Source: Candidatus Thorarchaeota archaeon (lineage in GTDB: Archaea; Asgardarchaeota; Thorarchaeia; Thorarchaeales; Thorarchaeaceae). Taken from it: DNA of 15,555 bases. The notes beneath the pieces are model-generated. The model did not search any database and was not told the origin of the DNA. It was given only the letters and a program-made list of their open reading frames with translations. Made by a program: the position numbers and the translations under genes. The DNA lies in the NCBI GenBank assembly GCA_003345555.1, contig PRDJ01000031.1, positions 1 to 15,555 of the forward strand. Reading direction: 5' to 3'. Positions 1-15,437 of the stretch are shown piece after piece; position 1 is the first letter of the stretch, and each line of letters opens with the position of its first letter.

Positions 1-790
1 ACCCTCCTCTGGCGAGAGCATCTGGAATTGCACCTGCAAGACCGGCGAAGGAGCCCACGGTTTTCGCGTAAGGGTACGAATCGTCAGTGACTCTGCCTGC
101 CAATGTGGTGCCGAAGTCAAGAGCCATGACAGGGTTCCGGAAGTCGATGTCTGAACCTTTGACGGCGCCTTTGATTCCTGCTGTGACAAGCTCTCCTTCC
201 ATCTCGTTCGCAACAACCTCTGCACTAGAGGGAGGAAGTGAGCTAGCGACTGCTCCATCAAAATAGACCTTCTTGAGCCAACTGAAGTCTCTGACATCTT
301 CCGGCAGATTCTCCGGGGAAATTGAAGCCGCCATCTTTCGCGGTGGAACTCCTGCAGCAATGCAACCGTCAGCGAGCGCTTTCACCATCTCGCCGACCTC
401 CACGGGCTTTGAGAAACCAGCCGTCACCCCGGTAGATCTTACCACGAAGTGAAGGTCTCTCTCCATGTCAAGATGAGCATCATGTAGGACAGATAGGAGA
501 ATGTCTGAAACGAGTTCCGAGACTGATTTTCGCGTTAGTTCCACACCTGTAATCGTTCTGCCGAAGATGTCCTCGCCATCCTTGGGGGATCTCACGTCCC
601 TTGTGAAGCGAACCTGTTTCGCTATCTCGAAGATTTCAGCTGTGCGGAGATTGGTGCTTACTAGGATGCACTTTGTCGTTGTGTTGCCGAGTTCCACGGA
701 AGCCACCGTGTAAAAAGGACCCGTCCTCAGAGATCCTACCCCTATTGTTCGGGGTCTTATGACCGTAGCACGGTGTGACGTTCCTAACAC
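1..790 (-). CDS. Methanogenesis marker protein 14 (DUF2114 family; ASKHA/actin-like ATPase fold), 3' end truncated by the window edge
   Basis: Not in the ORF track; translated by hand. Open from GTG at 790 (6 nt after the mtrH stop, preceded by GGGGT) to the edge, 263 codons: VLGTSHRATVIRPRTIGVGSLRTGPFYTVASVELGNTTTKCILVSTNL...LHFVVRSTGVTAGF...ALADGCIAAGVPPRKM...FDGAVA...VVANEMEGELVTAGIKG...DFRNPVMALDFGTTLAGR...GLAGAIPDALARG. These blocks match the marker-14 family as I recall it. ELGNTTTK and LDFGTT resemble ASKHA phosphate-1 and phosphate-2 loops. Confidence 0.85.
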   Translation of the reverse strand, partial: MLGTSHRATVIRPRTIGVGSLRTGPFYTVASVELGNTTTKCILVSTNLRTAEIFEIAKQVRFTRDVRSPKDGEDIFGRTITGVELTRKSVSELVSDILLSVLHDAHLDMERDLHFVVRSTGVTAGFSKPVEVGEMVKALADGCIAAGVPPRKMAASISPENLPEDVRDFSWLKKVYFDGAVASSLPPSSAEVVANEMEGELVTAGIKGAVKGSDIDFRNPVMALDFGTTLAGRVTDDSYPYAKTVGSFAGLAGAIPDALARGG

Positions 791-796
791 ACCCCA

Positions 797-1732
797 TCAT
801 AACAACTTGCGGAATGGATGGTTCTCGGAAGGCTGGACACCAAACTCAACGCTTGATGACTCTGCGGCGAAAATATCGGCCATCGCCACAACGGGAAAGA
901 CTGTTCTTGCATTGCTGATTGGCCCATAGAGAATGAAGTTGGCGCCCATCATCTGCACTATCAGGGCAGAAGCCACATCACATGCACGATACGCATCAGG
1001 ATTGGTCTTCTTGTACTTCCGAAGCCAAGACCATGAACTGGGTGCGTTGTGAACCCCAGACCCAGTGGGTTGGCCGTAGAGAGTCTTGGCCACGAATATG
1101 AAGGATGCCGAGGAGCCAGCACCGGCACCCATGGCAGTCGTTGCCGTATCAATGAGAGGTTTTGTGATTCCCACTTCCTCGCCCATTTTCAGCAAGCCCT
1201 TGTCGAGTCCGGGAACTCCATCTTCAAGCACAGCTCGCCTGCCAGCAATCGAGGAGTCGTGAGGATTGAAAGCCAATATCACTGCACAATCATGATGAAT
1301 ATCCTTCAGAGATGCAAGCTCGTCCTTTGTGATGGAGACACTGATCGAATTGTAGATGGCCCTGTCTAGGAGACCGACCTCCTGAGCATGCCTCAAACCC
1401 GCAATCCGCACCTCAGGGCTGGTCGAATCGATAAGAAATGGCGCGTCTGTGACCTCAGCAACGAAATCAAGGTACTTTGTGACTGCCTTCTCAGATTCGG
1501 AAAACACTTGGACAAGAGCAGGATTGCCTGTGGTGTCTGACATCTCATCTTGAACTCGGATTAGCTCCGTCGCGGCCCTCTTGTCAAAGACGCCTTTCCG
1601 AGCATCTTGGACTACGTCGTGCCCACCGTAGAAAATGGTACCAGCAAGAACGGTTGGCATCTCTCCGGGCACGCCTCCGATTCTAATCCCTCCAATGGTA
1701 TGTACAATCTGCTCCTTCTCAAATGCGAACAT
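797..1732 (-). CDS. mtrH: Tetrahydromethanopterin S-methyltransferase subunit H homolog (paralog 1, canonical-looking)
   Basis: 311 aa. N-terminus MFAFEKEQ..IGG..GE.PTVLAGTIFYGGH; motifs FLIDST, IYNSI, LIDTA, GSGVHNAPSSW, NFILYGPI and a C-terminal HPF, all typical of the MtrH/MtxH/MtgA pterin-binding TIM barrel. Confidence 0.93.
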   Translation of the reverse strand: MFAFEKEQIVHTIGGIRIGGVPGEMPTVLAGTIFYGGHDVVQDARKGVFDKRAATELIRVQDEMSDTTGNPALVQVFSESEKAVTKYLDFVAEVTDAPFLIDSTSPEVRIAGLRHAQEVGLLDRAIYNSISVSITKDELASLKDIHHDCAVILAFNPHDSSIAGRRAVLEDGVPGLDKGLLKMGEEVGITKPLIDTATTAMGAGAGSSASFIFVAKTLYGQPTGSGVHNAPSSWSWLRKYKKTNPDAYRACDVASALIVQMMGANFILYGPISNARTVFPVVAMADIFAAESSSVEFGVQPSENHPFRKLL

Positions 1733-1735
1733 ATC

Positions 1736-2431
1736 TCACAGCTCCTTTCCGACAAGTATTGTCCCTGTCTCTGTCCTCTGAACAACGACCGCTATCGTAG
1801 AGGGGTGAGTGGTTACCACTGCGTAGAGGTCTAGCTTCGAGACCAATGAGGAAAACGGATCTACAGAGAGACCATATTCAGGCAGCAGCGCAATAGCGGA
1901 ACCTAATCCTCTCGGGGCTGCCCTTCCGCGTTTAGCCTTGAACTCGACCCACAATGCTTCGCCTCCAAATGGGCCGGGATTCTTTGAGGTCAGTTCGCGA
2001 GCGACCCGAGCAATATCGTCGGGGTTCGTGACATCTATCATGTCTATGAGTTCTACTTGCATCCTGAATCGCTCAATCGCTTCTGTTGGCAGGTTCTCAA
2101 CATAAGGGATGGCTCCTTCGGCTTCGACTATCTTCCGGGTTTCCTTGTCAACGCCCTTCTGATGAAGACATCGTACCGATGAGCCGGTCTTGTGACCAGG
2201 AACCTCTGGTCCTGCCAAAACGAGGTATCTGATGCAGGGATTGGATACTATGTTAACAATCATTCGTTCTATTCCGATGTTCTCAGTCTTGCAGGTGCCG
2301 ATTATGGCGTAGTCTGAATCAACATCTATCTTCTTTCCAAGGGTGCATATTGCGATGCACGAACCAGGATTCTTAACTTCGAAGTCGCCAGGAATCGGCG
2401 GCCATTCCCGCTTCTCAGCACTCGTAACCAT
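1736..2431 (-). CDS. mtrA: MtrA/MtxA-like cobamide methyl-carrier protein, soluble (no C-terminal membrane anchor), with a ~65 aa C-terminal extension
   Basis: 231 aa. WPPIPGDF, G.CKTENIGIE, NIVSNPCIRYLVLAG.EV.GH.TG (His80 matches the cobamide axial-ligand His of MtrA), GAIPYVENL. RBS GGAGG at 2443-2439 overlaps the upstream stop. No long hydrophobic segment at the C-terminus. Confidence 0.92.
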   Translation of the reverse strand: MVTSAEKREWPPIPGDFEVKNPGSCIAICTLGKKIDVDSDYAIIGTCKTENIGIERMIVNIVSNPCIRYLVLAGPEVPGHKTGSSVRCLHQKGVDKETRKIVEAEGAIPYVENLPTEAIERFRMQVELIDMIDVTNPDDIARVARELTSKNPGPFGGEALWVEFKAKRGRAAPRGLGSAIALLPEYGLSVDPFSSLVSKLDLYAVVTTHPSTIAVVVQRTETGTILVGKEL

Positions 2432-2442
2432 AGCAGAACCTC

Positions 2443-3360
2443 CTACTCGAACGACGGCGGCTCGAAAATGGGATGACTTAGTCCCAATGCCTGCTGCGCT
2501 TCAGCGATAGCTGCAGCCATTGCATTTGCTATCAGCGCTGTCGCGGTGAATACTTGCTTGGTCCTTGCCATCGATCCGTACATTATGCAGTCAGTGGCGA
2601 ACAACTGGGCAGCAACAGTCGAAGCTACAATCGCCGAGGTCTGGGTGATCTCGTCATCAAACCCAGCCTGCTTTATGAATTTCCAAGCAGAGGGGGCATT
2701 GTGAGGTCCCAAGCATGTCGGCAGCCCTAATTCCGACTTGATAGCAAGCACGGTTCTGTATTCCAGTCCGTACCCTGCGCCCACCGGCATTGTGGCGGGG
2801 TCTACAACCATCTTCTCGATGCCGATCGCCTTGGCCTCGTCAATCATTGACCGAATCGTCTCCATCCGGTCAGGCAGACTCATCGCCTTGGGTGACCAAC
2901 CAAGAACCACAGCCATCTTCAGAGAACTGTTTCGAAGCAACTGCTTCTCATCATCCTTCATGGACAGATTGATTGAATTGTATATGGCCCTCTTGCTCAA
3001 GCCGGTCTCGTGGCAGTATTCTATGGCCTTCTTTCGCGCATCACCACTTGTTGATTCGAACATAAACGGACCATCGAAGTTCTCACCGAGCCACGACAAG
3101 TGATTCTCCATTGCCTCAGGCGTCCGACCAAAGGCTTGAATGATAAGCGGGTGGCCTGTCTTCTCAACCATCATCTTGGCTGTATCAATCCACTGCTTGG
3201 TCATTTCCTTGTCAAACGTGCCTTCCTTCGCGCTCTTGACGATAGGCTGCGTAGTAAAGAAGAGCCCTCCAATCAACACGGTGGGGTTCTGTCCGGGTTG
3301 GCCGCCAACCGTCACGCCGCCGAAATCAAAAGCCTGCTGCTCCTTCTTGAAAACGAACAT
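2443..3360 (-). CDS. mtrH: MtrH-family methyl-pterin:corrinoid methyltransferase (paralog 2, divergent)
   Basis: The track ORF starts at 3432 inside metF. The likely start is ATG 3360 (MFVFKKEQQ..., matching paralog 1), preceded by TGAGGT overlapping the metF stop; 305 aa. Motifs GGQPGQNPTVLIG, FEST, IYNSI, VVDPAT, GPHNAPSAW, IMYGS, HPIF. Confidence 0.88.
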   Translation of the reverse strand: MFVFKKEQQAFDFGGVTVGGQPGQNPTVLIGGLFFTTQPIVKSAKEGTFDKEMTKQWIDTAKMMVEKTGHPLIIQAFGRTPEAMENHLSWLGENFDGPFMFESTSGDARKKAIEYCHETGLSKRAIYNSINLSMKDDEKQLLRNSSLKMAVVLGWSPKAMSLPDRMETIRSMIDEAKAIGIEKMVVDPATMPVGAGYGLEYRTVLAIKSELGLPTCLGPHNAPSAWKFIKQAGFDDEITQTSAIVASTVAAQLFATDCIMYGSMARTKQVFTATALIANAMAAAIAEAQQALGLSHPIFEPPSFE

Positions 3361-3371
3361 CGTTCTCAACC

Positions 3372-4385
3372 TCACTTCGGTCTGGGGTATAACCCCGAAG
3401 CCTTCACTAGCTCCGGGATGCTCTCTTCCCATCCGATGGCCATGATATGAATGCCATTGATTCCACGAATCATCTTCACTCGGTTGATTGTCTCCAAAGC
3501 GACTGCAATACCCTCAGCACGGACCGCCTCTTTCTTCTCTTCGCCTTTCATTCCTGCGCCAGCAGACTCCAGACGATTAACTATCTCGTCGGAAATCCTA
3601 ATGCCGGGGATTCTCTCATTCATGAAGCGAGCCATCTTCGGTCCTTTCAAGGGGATTACACCTGCCAGTACCTTGACGCCCAATGGCTCAATCTGCTCCA
3701 TGTACTCTTCGAGTCGGGCAGTATCATAAATCGCCTGAGTCTGAAAGAACTGAGCCCCTGCATCACGTTTCTTTTCTACACGCCAGACTTGGAGCTCAAG
3801 CGGGTCAGCATTTGGATTGAATGTCGCACCGAGATGGAAAAGCGGTATGCCCTCAAGCTTCTCCCCGGCCAAGTCCTTCCCCGACATCAGATGACTGGCG
3901 AGCTGTAGGGCTTGGATGGAGTCCAGATCATACACCATCTTTGCCTGAGGATGCGATCCTAGGAGAGTGTGATCGCCCGTAACGAACAGGATGTTGCGAA
4001 TCCCTAGTGCGTATGCACCATAAAGCTCGCTCTCGAAGAGGATGCGATTCCTGTCTCTGGAAGACATCTGCATGACTGGCTCGGCGCCAGCCTGAATGAC
4101 AAAGTGAGCACATGCCATACTGCTCATAGTGGGAATACCGCGGACGTTGTCAGTGATGTTGATTGCGTCACAGTAATCCTTGACGAGACGTGTTCGTTCT
4201 CTTACTAGGTCATCATCAGCGCCATGCGGAGGTCCGACTTCTCCTGTGACAGTGAACTTGCCACTTCGAAGCATGCGCCTGAGCTTGGTTTCTGGTGATT
4301 GCACGCTGTTCTTCAATCTGGCGTCGAAAGACCCCGTCTGAAGACTGACACATATCTCCTTTGGTTGAGCGATACAGGAGTACAT
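3372..4385 (-). CDS. metF: 5,10-methylenetetrahydrofolate reductase, MetF subunit (MetVF type)
   Basis: Motifs TGEVGPP, AINITDN, SRDRN, TGDH, FFQTQ, LAGVIPL, GIHIM. GGAGG lies 5 nt upstream of ATG 4385, which supports that start. GTG 4304 (VQSPETKLRRML) is an alternative closer to the usual family N-terminus. Confidence 0.92.
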   Translation of the reverse strand: MYSCIAQPKEICVSLQTGSFDARLKNSVQSPETKLRRMLRSGKFTVTGEVGPPHGADDDLVRERTRLVKDYCDAINITDNVRGIPTMSSMACAHFVIQAGAEPVMQMSSRDRNRILFESELYGAYALGIRNILFVTGDHTLLGSHPQAKMVYDLDSIQALQLASHLMSGKDLAGEKLEGIPLFHLGATFNPNADPLELQVWRVEKKRDAGAQFFQTQAIYDTARLEEYMEQIEPLGVKVLAGVIPLKGPKMARFMNERIPGIRISDEIVNRLESAGAGMKGEEKKEAVRAEGIAVALETINRVKMIRGINGIHIMAIGWEESIPELVKASGLYPRPK

Positions 4386-4433: not shown

Positions 4434-5090
4434 CTAGGCTTCCTCATGGACTACCGAGTGCGGGCCCTGAGACAAGCTCCAGTCCTTTATCTCCCAGATT
4501 GACTTCAGTTTGTCGAGCTTTCCTAGCTTCTTTAGTCGATCATAAATAAGCTGCCAAGCGCAGTCTGTCTCCGGATCTCTCTCGCATTTGCCATTCATCG
4601 AGCCACCACATGGACCATTTAGGATACCTTTCGCACAGCGGGCGAGCGGACAAATGCCACCGGTCAAGTCCAAAATGCATTCACCACACATGATACAGCG
4701 CTCTTGGTGAACAAACCGTTGTGGCATAGTCCCGAGGAACTTCGAATCAGTGGCTGGAAAGGACTCCTTCTCTGGTATCAGTTCTGTGACGTTTTGAGTC
4801 GCTACACCGCATGCCTGTATCAAAAAAGCTTCGGCCTCATCGAGTATCGCCCTATTGTTCTCCATCTCCTGTTTGACAGCATTGACATCGCATATTCCGC
4901 CTTGAACGAATATCTTGCCCAGGACCTGCTTATTGTGCTGTCGCAGAAAATCCTCCATGTCTTCGAGTTGAAGTATGCCGCCCACATCACACATCTGAGC
5001 ACAACCTGAATCACCAAAGAGGACTATCTTCTCGTATCCCTCCAACATCCGGAGAATCTCATCTGGTGATTTCAATTCCATGGCAATCAT
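4434..5090 (-). CDS. metV: MetV, Cys-rich small subunit of methylene-tetrahydrofolate reductase
   Basis: Cys cluster ERCIMCGEC..TGGICPLARCAKGILNGPCGG..GKCE..DCAWQLIYDRL, directly upstream of metF. Start chosen at ATG 5090 (MIAMELKSPDEI) because it fits the family N-terminus. The track's ATG 5129 abuts a TATA-like box. Confidence 0.88.
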   Translation of the reverse strand: MIAMELKSPDEILRMLEGYEKIVLFGDSGCAQMCDVGGILQLEDMEDFLRQHNKQVLGKIFVQGGICDVNAVKQEMENNRAILDEAEAFLIQACGVATQNVTELIPEKESFPATDSKFLGTMPQRFVHQERCIMCGECILDLTGGICPLARCAKGILNGPCGGSMNGKCERDPETDCAWQLIYDRLKKLGKLDKLKSIWEIKDWSLSQGPHSVVHEEA

Positions 5091-5130
5091 AGAGAGGACG
5101 TCACTCGTACTAAGTCGTCGATACTGCATC

Positions 5131-5169: not shown

Positions 5170-6483
5170 TCATGCACCCTGGGCCGGATTATCGGACTTT
5201 GGCTCCAATTTCCGAATCGCATCTTGTGGGAGCATCTTCAGGAGCTTCTGAGCAACGTCAAGACTGAGACTGGCCTCTACCTCGATTCGATCCTCTTTGA
5301 ACTTCTGATTGCGAACACTACCAACCTGATGCAACCACGAGATGAGAGACATAGTCGAGTCACCATATGGCAAATCGATTGAGTAGACGGACAAGATTGG
5401 CAGTAGACTTTCAATTACGCTGACAAGCGTCGGAAGATTGAGCATTTCCTTTGCAGAGACAGGTACCACCTCGGACCCGACGCCGTCAAGTGCGGAAATC
5501 CTCTCTCTGATGCCTGCATCGTCAATGAGATCAACCTTATTCAAGGCAGTGACAATTGGAATCCCGTTAATCCCGATTCGTGTGAATGTGTCTAGGCATA
5601 CATTCGCTTTTCGTCGGACCTCGTCCACAGAATTAGACCCATCGACAACGAGAAGAATGACATCTGCGTCAGCAATCTCCATCAAAGTAGTGTTGAACGC
5701 GCGAAGCAACGACTTTGGAAGATCACTTATGAAACCAACAGAGTCCGTGAGAACTACCTGCCGACCATCCATCGCTAAGTCAGAGGACTTGGTGGAGAGG
5801 GTTGTGAAGAGCCCAGCTGCGACCTCCACTTGTGACCCGGTCAATGCGCGATGAAGGGTGCTCTTGCCTGCATTAGTATAACCTGCAAGGGCCACTTCAA
5901 GAAAGCCCGAATCAACTCTCTTCTTCCGTTTCAACTCTGAAGCTTCAGATATCTTCTGCAGCTTCTCCTCGATGGCTGCAACACGATGCCTAATCTCCAT
6001 GTATCGGAGATTGAGAAGGTCCTCGCCAGGTCCCACTTGTCGTCCTACCGGTCTTGGACCTGCGCGTTCTTTGTCGAGGTGTTCTTTGAGCTGGTGTCGT
6101 ACGAAAGGAAGCTCATAGCTCAGCCTTGCTTGTTCAATTTGCAGTTTAGATTGAGGGGTTCGTGCGTGTCTATCGAATATCTCCAGAATGAGCTGGACTC
6201 TGTCCCTCACATCCGTTTTCCATTCTTCCTTCAGTCTGTACATCTGGCTTGACTTAAGCCCCGGAGAATAGAAGACGACGTCAGGCTTCTGGGCTTCAAT
6301 CCAGATCCTGATTTCCTCAACCTTGCCGCCCTTGATTCCAAATCGTGCTGACGACGGCCCCACAACATCGAAGGTTCCAACTACGTTGTACTCGGCTGTC
6401 TTAGCTAGGGCCTCGAATTCCTCAAGCAAGTCCGGATCGCGTGCGAACCTATGCTGGACGAGGAGCGCAGTTGTTGAAACCAT
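5170..6483 (-). CDS. hflX: Ribosome-associated GTPase HflX
   Basis: 437 aa. HflX N-domain (ILEIFDRHART..SKLQIEQARLSYELP), GPGE motif, G1 GYTNAGKS, G2 LFTTL, G3 DSVGF, G4 NKVD, G5 SAK. Confidence 0.96.
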   Translation of the reverse strand: MVSTTALLVQHRFARDPDLLEEFEALAKTAEYNVVGTFDVVGPSSARFGIKGGKVEEIRIWIEAQKPDVVFYSPGLKSSQMYRLKEEWKTDVRDRVQLILEIFDRHARTPQSKLQIEQARLSYELPFVRHQLKEHLDKERAGPRPVGRQVGPGEDLLNLRYMEIRHRVAAIEEKLQKISEASELKRKKRVDSGFLEVALAGYTNAGKSTLHRALTGSQVEVAAGLFTTLSTKSSDLAMDGRQVVLTDSVGFISDLPKSLLRAFNTTLMEIADADVILLVVDGSNSVDEVRRKANVCLDTFTRIGINGIPIVTALNKVDLIDDAGIRERISALDGVGSEVVPVSAKEMLNLPTLVSVIESLLPILSVYSIDLPYGDSTMSLISWLHQVGSVRNQKFKEDRIEVEASLSLDVAQKLLKMLPQDAIRKLEPKSDNPAQGA

Positions 6484-13254: not shown

Positions 13255-13569
13255 CAATCACCACTTTCAGATAGACTTCATCCAGAAAAAGAGAGACGAG
13301 CACCATGTCATCTCTTTTACTGGTCCTTCAAACAACAATGGGCCGAGAGGCGATATTAAAGGTTTGTCACTGACGAGGGCGTTCAGATGTCGGAATACAG
13401 GTTGTCCGAAGAGTCGGTAACAAAAAGCCTGTGCAGAACAATGCTATCGTCACGGACCGCCGTTTGTGTTGCCCTTCGCGTCCCTAAAAGTCTAAATAGT
13501 GCACCTGACAGCCCGAAGTCATCCTCTCAATACCTCGCTCTGAGGAGAAGAGGAGGAGATGAATATATA

Positions 13570-14607
13570 GTGAGAGCAGGAAACAACACACGCAGGATTG
13601 GATCAATCCTGATCATCGCCGCTCTGCTTGCACCATCTCTCGCGCTGTTAGGTATTGCCCCTGTTCCAGCTCGTGCCGCGACACAGGTTATTGTCTTTGA
13701 CATGGGCCACGGACAATACAAGGCCGCGGTCTTCACTGCACAAGACGCGTGGCTGGCAGGCAACCTGACCGCGTTGGGATACCAAGTGATATGGGCATGG
13801 GGCGGAATAAACGCTAGCATCCTGTCTAATGCGACAGGACTTGTGCTCGGTAGTCTGTATGGGCCTTCGTACAATTTCAGCACAGCTATGGTTAACGACA
13901 TCACAACATGGTTCAATTCGGGGAAGAAGTTCCTCTGGGTTGCAGGAGACTCGGACAATGCTGGCAATGGCCCAATCGCTAACGCGAGCGTAGTCCTCGA
14001 TGCGGTTGGCTCACACGTCTATGTAGAACCTTGCTCCGTGGAGGACCCGATTTCGAGCGCCGGCTCCGCGTATCGAGTAGTCGCCAACAAGACCAGCACA
14101 AATGCCTACGTTGCCGACCTAGTAGGGAATACTACTAAAGTCTTGATGCATGGCCCGACTACCCTTTATGGCAGCACAACTGGACACAAGGACGGCGGCA
14201 TAGTCAGTCTGGAGAACACGACTATCGCGAACGTCTACCCAGTACTCTACTATGGCGGATCTGCTGTAATAGTCGACCCTGACCTCATTCCTCCTGTTGC
14301 TCATACAGCAGGTCAGACCGGCTCATTCACAGCAATGACTGTCGAGGTCAATGCAGGCAGTGGCCAAAACGGAGTCATCGCTGTATCAGGTGCATCACCG
14401 TATGCTGACTACATGCCAATGACCTGTCAGCTGTACTACAACGTGACCATGAATGGCCAGCTTCTGGTGAGGCAGACTATCGACTGGGGCATGAAACTAG
14501 CCACCTACACTACTGTGACACCAGTCGACTACACCCTATATATCGGCATAGGAGCTGTTGCAGTAGTCGTCGTATTGGCCCTAGCGTTCTTCCTGAGAAA
14601 GAAGTAA
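13570..14607 (+). CDS. Secreted, C-terminally anchored cell-surface glycoprotein; possible DUF4350/GldG-like (class I glutamine-amidotransferase-like) fold
   Basis: Likely start GTG 13570 after GGAGGAG, giving 345 aa (the track start at 13387 adds a non-protein-like 61 aa). Signal peptide VRAGNNTRR-IGSILIIAALLAPSLALLGIAP-VPARA/A. VIVFDMGHGQ motif, 9 N-x-S/T sequons, Thr-rich linker, TM helix and LRKK tail. The fold call is tentative. Confidence 0.75.
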   Translation: MRAGNNTRRIGSILIIAALLAPSLALLGIAPVPARAATQVIVFDMGHGQYKAAVFTAQDAWLAGNLTALGYQVIWAWGGINASILSNATGLVLGSLYGPSYNFSTAMVNDITTWFNSGKKFLWVAGDSDNAGNGPIANASVVLDAVGSHVYVEPCSVEDPISSAGSAYRVVANKTSTNAYVADLVGNTTKVLMHGPTTLYGSTTGHKDGGIVSLENTTIANVYPVLYYGGSAVIVDPDLIPPVAHTAGQTGSFTAMTVEVNAGSGQNGVIAVSGASPYADYMPMTCQLYYNVTMNGQLLVRQTIDWGMKLATYTTVTPVDYTLYIGIGAVAVVVVLALAFFLRKK

Positions 14608-14657: not shown

Positions 14658-14804
14658 CTCTCCTGCGGTTAAGCCAGTAGTGAGAAGCAGAGTTGCTGCA
14701 ACAAGAGCATCTGTGCGACTGTTTTCCTGTAGTCGCCGAGACTTGATAATCTTCATATACGTTATAGACGCATGAAGTAGTGCTTGATTATTGGGGGCAG
14801 ATCC

Positions 14805-15437
14805 GTGTCGGACGAGATGAGACTGGAAGAGAAGGAAAAGAACATTGATACAAGCGTAATCTACTCGTTTGGATCCGCGATAATTGAGTTCGAGGATGTC
14901 ATCTTCCAGAAGTTTCTAGTCATGTCAGGCGTGAATTCTATCACTACCAAAGAGCAGTTCGGGAGAATTCTATCGAGAATGCACTCGAAGGGCTATATCG
15001 CGCCCCTTGAGTTTCTTGGCAGAAAAGCTTGGAGAAGGCTTGTGGTCGAGGACAGATTGGAGGATAGACTTGACCCCATATCTGTTCAGAAGAGATCTGG
15101 GGACATCACAATGCCGTCGAAGCCAGAGAAACTCCAAAGGGAACGTGACGAACGACTCGTGAGCGAGTCGAGACTCATTGCAGAGGATCTCCTGAAAACC
15201 ATGAGAGGAAAGCTACTCGGCGGCCGCGATCTCGATGCGAAAGCAAGGCAGGTGCTAGTGAGACATGCCGCCGAAATGCGTAAGGCACTGACCGATTCCA
15301 GAGAAGAACTCCTCAACTATGTCCGCTCTAATACCCCTTCCATGAGTGAACCCATGCAGAGAATACTCAACTCCAAGGGAGAAGACGTTCTGCTGCTTAG
15401 CCTGCGTCTCATCGAGACGGGATATGCAAGCTCGTGA
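14805..15437 (+). CDS. Hypothetical protein, possible N-terminal winged-helix domain plus helical C-terminal domain
   Basis: Long open frame (track 14784-15437). GTG 14805 after GGGGG is the preferred start and ATG 14817 an alternative. QFGRILSRMHSKGYIAPLEFLGRKAW resembles a wHTH recognition helix and wing. No recognisable family. Confidence 0.55.
   Translation: MSDEMRLEEKEKNIDTSVIYSFGSAIIEFEDVIFQKFLVMSGVNSITTKEQFGRILSRMHSKGYIAPLEFLGRKAWRRLVVEDRLEDRLDPISVQKRSGDITMPSKPEKLQRERDERLVSESRLIAEDLLKTMRGKLLGGRDLDAKARQVLVRHAAEMRKALTDSREELLNYVRSNTPSMSEPMQRILNSKGEDVLLLSLRLIETGYASS

What the first reader, a model, noticed from the sequence alone, without database searches (positions are those of the whole stretch)
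1736..1936. MtrA replaces its membrane anchor with MtrB-like beta-hairpin segment(s)
Seen: after the MtrA core and a basic linker (KAKRGRAAPRG), residues ~179-199 read AIALLPEYGLSVDPFSSLVSK. A second strand-rich stretch follows, VVTTHPSTIAVVVQRTETGTILVGKEL. Neither can span a membrane. From memory, the first matches the cytoplasmic N-terminal motif of MtrB (roughly P-E-x-x-L-x-x-D-P-x-[ST]-G-x-[IV]), and TETGTI may be a degenerate second copy. Established in outline: N-terminal segments of the small stalk subunits attach MtrH to the membrane Mtr complex. Inference: this is a minimal MtrA-MtrB(N) fusion carrying its own MtrH tether(s), possibly one per paralog, i.e. the Mtr head group without the ion pump.
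Basis: partly seen in the sequence, partly recalled or inferred. Interest (0 to 1): 0.72.

Follow-up and report, generated by a model that had tools for sequence, protein, structure and literature searches.

The report
MtrB-like docking tail on soluble MtrA
In this Thorarchaeota (Asgard) genome the vitamin-B12 carrier protein MtrA has no membrane anchor; instead it ends in a conserved tail whose first part copies the short arm that methanogens' MtrB uses to hold the methyltransferase MtrH, so it probably tethers MtrA to its neighbouring MtrH proteins in a soluble, pump-free enzyme.

Summary
Window 1736-1936 (minus strand) encodes residues 166-231 of a 231-aa MtrA. This is a basic variable linker, the stretch AIALLPEYGLSVDPFSSLVSK (179-199), and a strand-rich end. 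No segment is hydrophobic enough to span a membrane.

The tail is present in 68 of 68 Thorarchaeia-type MtrA loci, always within MetF-MtrH2-MtrA-MtrH1-marker 14.

The likeness to MtrB is real:
- Profile-profile comparison aligns residues 180-200 to MtrB residues 4-24, the published MtrH-docking segment (hhalign P 1.4e-6, probability 90%).
- Shuffled and natural controls stay at background.
- Reciprocal searches make MtrA the best hit of an MtrB N-terminal profile in this genome. MtrB is the best genome-wide hit of the tail profile in two of five methanogen genomes.

The proposed second copy (TETGTI) is not supported. Residues 202-231 are a conserved element with no detectable relative.

Binding to MtrH is inferred, not shown. 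Residue patterns point to the diverged paralog MtrH2 as the partner.

The genome (93% complete) yielded no MtrB-G and no McrA.

I found no paper describing this tail. Earlier reports of this scan reached the same reading on other Thorarchaeia DNA. I class it as a new variant of a known kind, of moderate interest.

The parts
1736..2431 (-). mtrA gene, 231 aa plus TGA stop; soluble Thorarchaeia-type MtrA
   Evidence: ORF and translation. Pfam PF04208 at 186 bits over residues 7-168. It is the only MtrA found in the genome.
1928..2413 (-). MtrA corrinoid-binding core (residues 7-168), including invariant H80 in GPEVPGH
   Evidence: aligns to PDB 5laa, 8q3v, 9qtq. AlphaFold2 pLDDT is about 90 over residues 20-160.
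1895..1936 (-). Basic, poorly conserved linker (residues 166-179)
   Evidence: Mean column identity 0.37. Predicted disordered.
1832..1894 (-). MtrB-N-terminus-like segment (residues 180-200, IALLPEYGLSVDPFSSLVSKL); proposed MtrH-docking strands
   Evidence: hhalign against 118 MtrB N-termini gives P 1.4e-6, probability 90%, aligned to MtrB residues 4-24. 300 column shuffles reach at most 17.9, against 27.4 for the real alignment scored on the same 32-row MtrB set. Reciprocal hits. P184 and E185 are invariant.
1805..1831 (-). Spacer (residues 201-209), moderately conserved
   Evidence: Mean column identity 0.48.
1739..1804 (-). Conserved C-terminal element (residues 210-231, HPS..I..V....GTILVGKE), predicted beta-hairpin; no detectable relatives
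   Evidence: Mean column identity 0.66. AlphaFold2 places strands at 213-220 and 223-230, at low confidence. No similarity to MtrB, MtrF, MtrG or the first half of the tail.
797..1732 (-). mtrH1, the canonical-like MtrH paralog (311 aa); its start lies one codon after the mtrA stop, in frame
   Evidence: TIGR01114 at 403 bits, above its cut-off. E-value 1.4e-79 to M. mazei MtrH 9qtp. The Arg211-equivalent position is A, S or G in 34 of 34 Thorarchaeia orthologues.
2443..3360 (-). mtrH2, the diverged MtrH paralog (305 aa from M25 of the 329-aa ORF that runs to 3432); inferred docking partner
   Evidence: Pfam MtrH at 242 bits. Orthologues are 305-308 aa. The Arg211-equivalent R is invariant in 34 of 34.
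3372..4385 (-). metF-like methylene-pterin reductase, upstream in the same conserved gene string
   Evidence: PF02219; synteny.
2..790 (-). Methanogenesis marker 14 (DUF2114), cut by the window end; immediately downstream of mtrH1
   Evidence: PF09887. The full-length orthologue scores 581 bits to TIGR03285. Synteny holds in about 60 loci.

Best explanation
This is the Thorarchaeia form of MtrA. It has a normal corrinoid-binding domain, but the C-terminal membrane helix is replaced by a flexible basic linker and a roughly 50-residue tail.

The first part of the tail (residues 180-200) is a copy of the N-terminal beta-strand arm of MtrB; whether it arose by descent or by convergence is not settled. 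In the methanogen Mtr complex, that arm docks the MtrH dimer onto the stalk.

The most likely mechanism has three parts:
1. The tail binds an MtrH dimer by adding strands at the dimer interface.
2. The invariant Glu185 takes the role of MtrB Glu9 and pairs with the Arg211-equivalent arginine. Here only the diverged paralog MtrH2 keeps that arginine.
3. The corrinoid domain stays tethered on the linker and can swing into MtrH active sites.

The result would be a soluble MtrA-MtrH1-MtrH2 methyl-transfer module with no ion pump.

Shown: the sequence similarity, the conservation, the synteny and the failure to find pump subunits. Inferred: the binding, the choice of MtrH2, and the role of the C-terminal hairpin as extra strands of the docking sheet.
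For: - **Forward profile comparison.** hhalign of 27 tails against MtrB N-termini gives P 1.4e-5 with 32 rows and P 1.4e-6, probability 90%, with 118 rows. Both align tail 180-200 to MtrB 4-24.
- **Published docking segment.** MtrB residues 1-23 hold the MtrH dimer, with salt bridges Arg5(MtrB)-Asp5(MtrH) and Glu9(MtrB)-Arg211(MtrH) (PMC12774963).
- **Controls.** 300 column shuffles gave mean 9.3, sd 2.1, max 17.9, against 27.4 for the real alignment. MtrF, MtrG, MtrH1, MtrH2, the MtrA core and canonical MtrA C-termini scored 9-14.
- **MtrB profile against this genome.** An MtrB N-terminal HMM ranks the MtrA ORF first of 44,170 six-frame ORFs, aligned at PEYGLSVDPFSSLVS.
- **Tail profile against methanogens.** 10 of the top 11 hits among 1,505 ORFs of methanogen mtr loci are MtrB; two of those MtrBs share the exact word LLPEYGL with the tail. 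MtrB is the best whole-genome hit in 2 of 5 methanogen genomes (E 0.008 and 0.05).
- **Residue pattern.** E185 is present in 27 of 27 tails. The Arg211-equivalent is R or K in 35 of 41 canonical MtrH, A/S/G in 34 of 34 MtrH1 and R in 34 of 34 MtrH2. The lost Arg5/Asp5 pair is lost on both sides: the tail is never basic at that position, and MtrH2 has K or R there.
- **Disorder.** The tail is disordered in isolation, as expected for a segment that folds on binding.
- **Synteny.** MtrH2-MtrA-MtrH1 is kept in about 65 species-level loci.
- **Missing pump.** No MtrB-G or McrA was found in the genome, which is 93% complete.
- **Precedent.** Six methanogen loci carry a second MtrA core fused to MtrG at the same junction.
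Against: - The similarity spans only about 21 residues. HMMER alone does not reach significance: E 6.2 with a small margin, no MtrB at E <= 1e-3 among 1.8 billion representatives, and no Pfam MtrB hit on the tail.
- In 3 of 5 methanogen genomes the tail profile did not find MtrB.
- The MtrB Arg5 contact is not kept.
- In canonical operons mtrB lies upstream of mtrA, so a simple read-through fusion cannot place the arm at the C-terminus of MtrA.
- The partner assignment to MtrH2 rests on one salt-bridge position, mapped by sequence alignment only.
Confidence: 0.65

Rival explanations
1. The motif likeness to MtrB is real, but the tail docks MtrA to something other than MtrH. Candidates are the conserved neighbour marker 14 (a possible corrinoid-servicing ATPase), MetF/MetV, or another MtrA copy (oligomerisation).
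For: Marker 14 and MetF sit in the same conserved gene string. The C-terminal half of the tail (residues 202-231) is as conserved as the MtrB-like part and has no relative that would assign it a partner. No binding result exists.
Against: The only part with a detectable relative matches the segment that binds MtrH in the solved complex. The Glu/Arg pair needed for that contact is invariant in the tail and in MtrH2.
Confidence: 0.17
2. One reading: the tail carries two MtrB-like tethers, 180-200 and a degenerate copy around TETGTI, one for each MtrH paralog.
For: Two MtrH paralogs always flank MtrA.
Against: That placement scores 8.9 (P 0.09), the same as unrelated controls. The two halves of the tail show no similarity to each other (score 8.0, P 0.17). 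The C-terminal half lacks the P-E and D-P hallmarks.
Confidence: 0.08
3. The resemblance is a coincidence of short strand-forming sequences. The tail is a lineage-specific appendage unrelated to MtrB in both origin and function.
For: Only about 21 columns align. The HMMER E-values are not significant. hhalign statistics are poorly calibrated for 40-column templates.
Against: The real score lies about 8 sd above the column shuffles and about twice every natural control. The best hits are reciprocal across whole genomes. The match falls on a protein of the same enzyme system and on its MtrH-binding segment.
Confidence: 0.07

Closest known systems
N-terminal arm of MtrB (residues 1-23) in the membrane Mtr complex of Methanosarcina mazei (PDB 9qtp/9qtq/9qts; PMC12774963). 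AlphaFold2 also predicted this contact for M. marburgensis (PMC10998594).
   Same: The consensus is the same: hydrophobic-hydrophobic-P-E-aromatic-x-hydrophobic-x-hydrophobic-D-P-x-x-[G/S]-hydrophobic-hydrophobic. It aligns column for column, so that tail E185 equals MtrB Glu9. Both segments are disordered when MtrH is absent.
   Different: Here the arm sits at the C-terminus of MtrA, not at the N-terminus of a separate protein. The rest of MtrB (central helix, DDLxNSLxP and PGRE motifs, membrane helix) is missing. The Arg5 contact is lost. An unrelated conserved hairpin follows the arm.
Canonical MtrA of methanogens (PF04208, TIGR01111; PDB 5laa, 5l8x, 8q3v)
   Same: The corrinoid-binding core is 44-49% identical, with the conserved His in G-x-E-V-x-G-H.
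   Different: There is no stalk or anchor helix. The tail shows no similarity to the canonical C-terminus (score 10). The TIGR01111 score (178) is below its equivalog cut-off (249).
[quoted passage not shown] 2022, PMC9635834)
   Same: These are the same genes and the same lineage. The paper already reports MtrA and MtrH as remnants of methanogenesis.
   Different: In the passages I read, the paper does not describe the MtrA tail, its likeness to MtrB, or the two distinct MtrH paralogs as docking partners.
MtrA-MtrH fusion proteins of Atabeyarchaeia and Freyarchaeia (PMC11291895), and the MtrA-core::MtrG fusions seen here in six methanogen loci
   Same: They are other ways of keeping the MtrA corrinoid domain physically attached to a partner once its own anchor is gone. 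The MtrG fusions use the same junction after the core.
   Different: Those are covalent fusions to whole proteins. Here only a roughly 21-residue docking arm was acquired.

Membership tests
MtrA (PF04208 / TIGR01111) | Corrinoid-binding Rossmann-like core domain | tested here: met
   PF04208 at 186 bits against a cut-off of 25, residues 7-168. E-value 4e-46 to PDB 5laa. AlphaFold2 core pLDDT is about 90.
MtrA (PF04208 / TIGR01111) | Conserved histidine of the G-x-E-V-x-G-H loop (the cobalt-associated His, His84 in M. marburgensis numbering) | tested here: met
   H80 is invariant in 27 of 27 sequences and aligns to the GH of 5laa. Its role as ligand comes from the literature (text; Harms & Thauer 1997, as cited).
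MtrA (PF04208 / TIGR01111) | C-terminal stalk and membrane-anchor helix | tested here: not met
   Maximum 19-residue hydropathy is 1.09, against 2.35 in canonical MtrA. No similarity to canonical C-termini. The TIGR01111 equivalog score of 178 is below its cut-off of 249.
MtrB (PF05440) | N-terminal MtrH-docking beta-strand arm (residues about 1-24) | tested here: met
   hhalign P 1.4e-6, probability 90%, tail 180-200 aligned to MtrB 4-24. Controls. Reciprocal hits.
MtrB (PF05440) | Central cytoplasmic helix with DDLxNSLxP, the PGRE loop and a C-terminal membrane helix; a whole-family Pfam match | tested here: not met
   No Pfam hit on the tail at E <= 1. hhalign covers only MtrB 4-24. The tail has no membrane segment. 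It is therefore not an MtrB, only MtrB-arm-like.
Energy-conserving Mtr complex (MtrABCDEFGH) | [quoted passage not shown] | tested here: not met
   phmmer with all eight subunits of a Methanotrichaceae operon finds only MtrA (one copy) and MtrH (three copies) in the genome. PF05440 gives no hit above its cut-off. The genome is 93.5% complete.
MtrB-arm/MtrH-dimer docking interaction | Physical binding of the arm at the MtrH dimer interface | not testable with these tools
   Only partner residues could be checked. The Glu9-equivalent E185 is invariant, and the Arg211-equivalent R is invariant in MtrH2 but absent from MtrH1.

The most novel reading that the evidence does not exclude
The tail docks asymmetrically on MtrH2, or on an MtrH1/MtrH2 heterodimer. 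One tethered corrinoid domain then alternates between two different pterin methyltransferase active sites. This would make a soluble pterin-to-pterin (for example H4MPT to folate-type) methyl shuttle, built from a dismantled Mtr complex with the MtrB arm reused as a portable docking module.
Probability: 0.2. Interest if true: 0.8.

Novelty: new variant of a known kind. Interest (0 to 1): 0.55.

Why it matters
The MtrB-MtrH contact was seen experimentally only in 2025. Finding the same arm grafted onto MtrA in a lineage without the pump gives independent evolutionary support that this short segment is the MtrH-docking element.

It also turns the unexplained 'MtrAH remnant' of Thorarchaeia into a defined three-protein soluble complex. 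That complex can be expressed, pulled down and assayed without membranes.

Finally, it gives a concrete handle (E185 in the tail, R202 in MtrH2) for asking what the two MtrH paralogs and marker 14 do in Asgard carbon metabolism.

Tried and rejected
- **Complex prediction.** MtrH1 + MtrH2 + tail, each as an alignment, scored 0.02 against a mark of 0.32. This is no verdict either way.
- **Read-through fold.** AlphaFold2 on the natural in-frame read-through MtrA-stop-codon-MtrH1 (19-row alignment A7) left the tail below pLDDT 50, and part of MtrH1 was also poor. Uninformative.
- **Tail profile against PDB sequences.** No MtrB chain came up. The only hits were weak LAMTOR5/roadblock matches (E 0.2) to residues about 200-229, which I treat as chance.
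- **Pfam on the tail alone.** Nothing.
- **Tail profile against 5.8 billion and 1.8 billion protein sets.** Only Thorarchaeia MtrA proteins and fragments of them were found. P0143 is a low-complexity eukaryote-like repeat protein and P0144 a frameshifted fragment, both spurious. The tail therefore never occurs as a separate protein, and HMMER alone cannot bridge to MtrB.
- **Second-copy hypothesis, and tail similarity to MtrF or MtrG N-termini.** Background scores only.
- **First hhalign run with only 9 full-length MtrB sequences.** The same alignment appeared, but with P 0.005 and probability 7%. It was superseded by deeper N-terminal alignments.

Full report
**What is in the window**

On the minus strand there is a tight gene string:
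- HflX (5170-6483)
- MetV-like DUF5981 (4434-5129)
- MetF-like reductase (3372-4385)
- MtrH2 (2443-3360; the ORF runs on to 3432)
- MtrA (1736-2431)
- MtrH1 (797-1732)
- methanogenesis marker 14 (2-790, cut by the window end)

The finding's coordinates, 1736-1936, encode residues 166-231 of MtrA plus the stop. Pfam MtrA covers residues 7-168, so the last 65 or so residues lie outside any known domain.

**Organism and distribution**

The closest homologues are Thorarchaeota MAG proteins of 225-236 aa that align over the full length. A scan of one genome per prokaryotic species returned 68 Thorarchaeia-type loci, some labelled Hermodarchaeota or Promethearchaeota. Wherever the contig allows it to be seen, these loci carry the order (HflX)-(MetV)-MetF-MtrH2-MtrA-MtrH1-marker 14.

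The window's genome is 2.28 Mb and 93.5% complete. I found one MtrA and three MtrH genes in it, and no MtrB, C, D, E, F, G or McrA. [quoted passage not shown]

**Is the tail real, and is it an anchor?**

It cannot span a membrane. The best 19-residue hydropathy mean is 1.09, against 2.35 for the anchor of a canonical MtrA.

It is under selection. Mean column identity by region:

| Region | Residues | Mean identity |
|---|---|---|
| Core | 9-160 | 0.75 |
| Basic linker | 166-179 | 0.37 |
| MtrB-like segment | 180-200 | 0.61 |
| Spacer | 201-209 | 0.48 |
| C-terminal element | 210-231 | 0.66 |

P184, E185, S195, P210, G223 and E230 are invariant in 27 sequences. All 68 loci keep a hydrophobic-hydrophobic-P-E motif.

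AlphaFold2 folds the core with confidence but leaves residues 164-231 below pLDDT 50. Only a tentative hairpin appears, at 213-220 and 223-230. That is the behaviour expected of a segment that folds on a partner.

**Is it MtrB-like?**

The published facts are these. In the M. mazei Mtr structure, the MtrH dimer sits on a three-stranded sheet formed by MtrB residues 1-23. The contact is made by small hydrophobic residues plus the salt bridges Arg5(MtrB)-Asp5(MtrH) and Glu9(MtrB)-Arg211(MtrH) (PMC12774963). The same contact had been predicted earlier for M. marburgensis (PMC10998594).

I collected real MtrB sequences from canonical mtrEDCBAFGH operons. The tests were:

- **Profile-profile comparison.** The 27-row tail alignment gave the same single alignment each time, tail 180-200 on MtrB 4-24. 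The score was P 0.005 with 9 full-length MtrB sequences, P 1.4e-5 with 32 N-termini, and P 1.4e-6 at 90% probability with 118 N-termini.
- **Shuffle control.** 300 column shuffles of the tail scored 9.3 ± 2.1, maximum 17.9. The real alignment scored 27.4 against the same 32-row MtrB set.
- **Natural controls.** Alignments of MtrF, MtrG, MtrH1, MtrH2, the MtrA core and canonical MtrA C-termini scored 9-14.
- **MtrB profile against this genome.** An MtrB N-terminal HMM searched against all 44,170 six-frame ORFs ranks the MtrA ORF first, aligned at PEYGLSVDPFSSLVS. The margin is small and E is 6.2.
- **Tail profile against methanogen loci.** A 25-column tail HMM puts MtrB in 10 of the top 11 places among 1,505 ORFs of methanogen mtr loci. 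The two best MtrBs share the exact word LLPEYGL with the tail.
- **Tail profile against whole methanogen genomes.** The MtrB N-terminus is the best hit in two of five genomes (E 0.008 and 0.05). The other three gave no MtrB hit.

HMMER alone across 1.8 billion representatives does not reach MtrB, and Pfam MtrB does not hit the tail. So this is a short-arm likeness, not membership of the MtrB family.

**The proposed second copy**

For residues 202-231, hhalign's best placement on MtrB is indeed VQRTETGTI on MtrB 13-21. Its score is 8.9 (P 0.09), which is background. The two halves of the tail do not resemble each other, and the second half resembles neither MtrF nor MtrG.

The C-terminal element is conserved but has no detectable relative. 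It may add strands to the docking sheet, as the MtrF and MtrG N-termini do in the full complex. That idea is inference only.

**Which MtrH?**

Mapping by HMMER alignment to the M. mazei chain and counting across alignments gives:

| MtrH position (M. mazei numbering) | Canonical MtrH | Thorarchaeia MtrH1 | Thorarchaeia MtrH2 |
|---|---|---|---|
| Arg211 | R or K in 35 of 41 | A, S or G in 34 of 34 | R in 34 of 34 |
| Asp5 | mostly D or E (31 of 41) | E, Q or D | K or R in 34 of 34 |

On the tail side, the Glu9 equivalent (E185) is invariant. The Arg5 equivalent is never basic.

So one salt bridge appears to be kept, between the tail and MtrH2, and the other is lost on both sides. This points to MtrH2, or to an interface that contains it, as the docking site. 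It rests on sequence mapping alone.

**Attempts at a structural test**

Both attempts failed to give an answer. They are listed under Tried and rejected and are not used as evidence.

**Mechanism proposed**

The MtrA corrinoid domain is held to an MtrH dimer by the MtrB-like arm, perhaps together with the extra hairpin. The 14-residue basic linker lets it reach MtrH active sites. In the full Mtr complex, MtrA and MtrH are each tied to the stalk. Here MtrA would be tied directly to MtrH and the stalk is dispensable.

There is a natural precedent for swapping what follows the MtrA core. Six methanogen loci encode a second MtrA core fused to MtrG at the same junction.

Origin by fusion with an mtrB fragment is plausible. 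It would need a rearrangement, because mtrB lies upstream of mtrA in canonical operons. Convergence cannot be excluded.

**Novelty**

No paper in the searchable library combines MtrA, MtrB and Thorarchaeia. The papers on Asgard MtrAH that I read do not mention the tail.

Earlier reports of this scan reached the same reading on other Thorarchaeia DNA (e1-5447981, e1-1448014). They are not independent evidence. Everything cited above was recomputed here.

**Verdict**

- Observation: confirmed.
- Interpretation: partly supported. The first motif holds, the second copy does not, and binding is untested.
- Class: a new variant of a known kind.
- Interest: moderate.

Noticed in passing
window 3361-3432 (minus strand): The longest mtrH2 ORF (329 aa) starts 24 codons upstream of the likely true start, M25 at 3360. 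Orthologues are 305-308 aa and begin MFVFKKEQ. The longer ORF would overlap the end of metF (3372).
   Followed up: partly
window 2-790 (minus strand); L003:7636-9069; L077:11387-12484: Methanogenesis marker 14 (DUF2114, TIGR03285 at 581 bits) follows mtrH1 directly in about 60 Thorarchaeia loci. It also lies a few kb from the mtr operon in a Methanopyri-like genome. It may service the MtrA corrinoid.
   Followed up: partly
G000 contig C42, locus L120:6028-9417: A third MtrH-family gene in the same genome sits next to a RACo-type reductive activator (2Fe-2S + ASKHA domains) and a B12-binding corrinoid protein. This is a second, classical corrinoid methyl-transfer system, separate from the MtrA module.
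   Followed up: partly
L103:952-1689, L104:949-1689, L105:952-1689, L106:1468-2235 (-), L107:940-1686, L108:1471-2208 (-): Six methanogen genomes carry the order mtrA-mtrF-[MtrA core fused to MtrG]. The second, near-identical corrinoid domain is joined to MtrG at the same post-core junction, in place of its own anchor helix.
   Followed up: partly
L070:9372-10412 (-): Methanogenesis marker 12 (TIGR03281, 298 bits) lies about 1.2 kb downstream of mtrH in a Methanotrichaceae mtr locus.
   Followed up: no
L086 (G004 contig C182), 1489-2868 (-): A Methanosarcinales genome has a second, diverged small cluster with MtrB-like, MtrF-like and short MtrG-like genes, away from its main mtr operon.
   Followed up: no
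window 1733-1738: The mtrA stop (TGA) and the mtrH1 start are separated by a single codon and lie in the same frame. The same one-codon in-frame spacing occurs in 18 other Thorarchaeia loci, which suggests translational coupling.
   Followed up: partly
window 13387-14607 (+) and 14784-15437 (+): Two ORFs of 406 and 217 aa have no Pfam or NCBIfam match.
   Followed up: no
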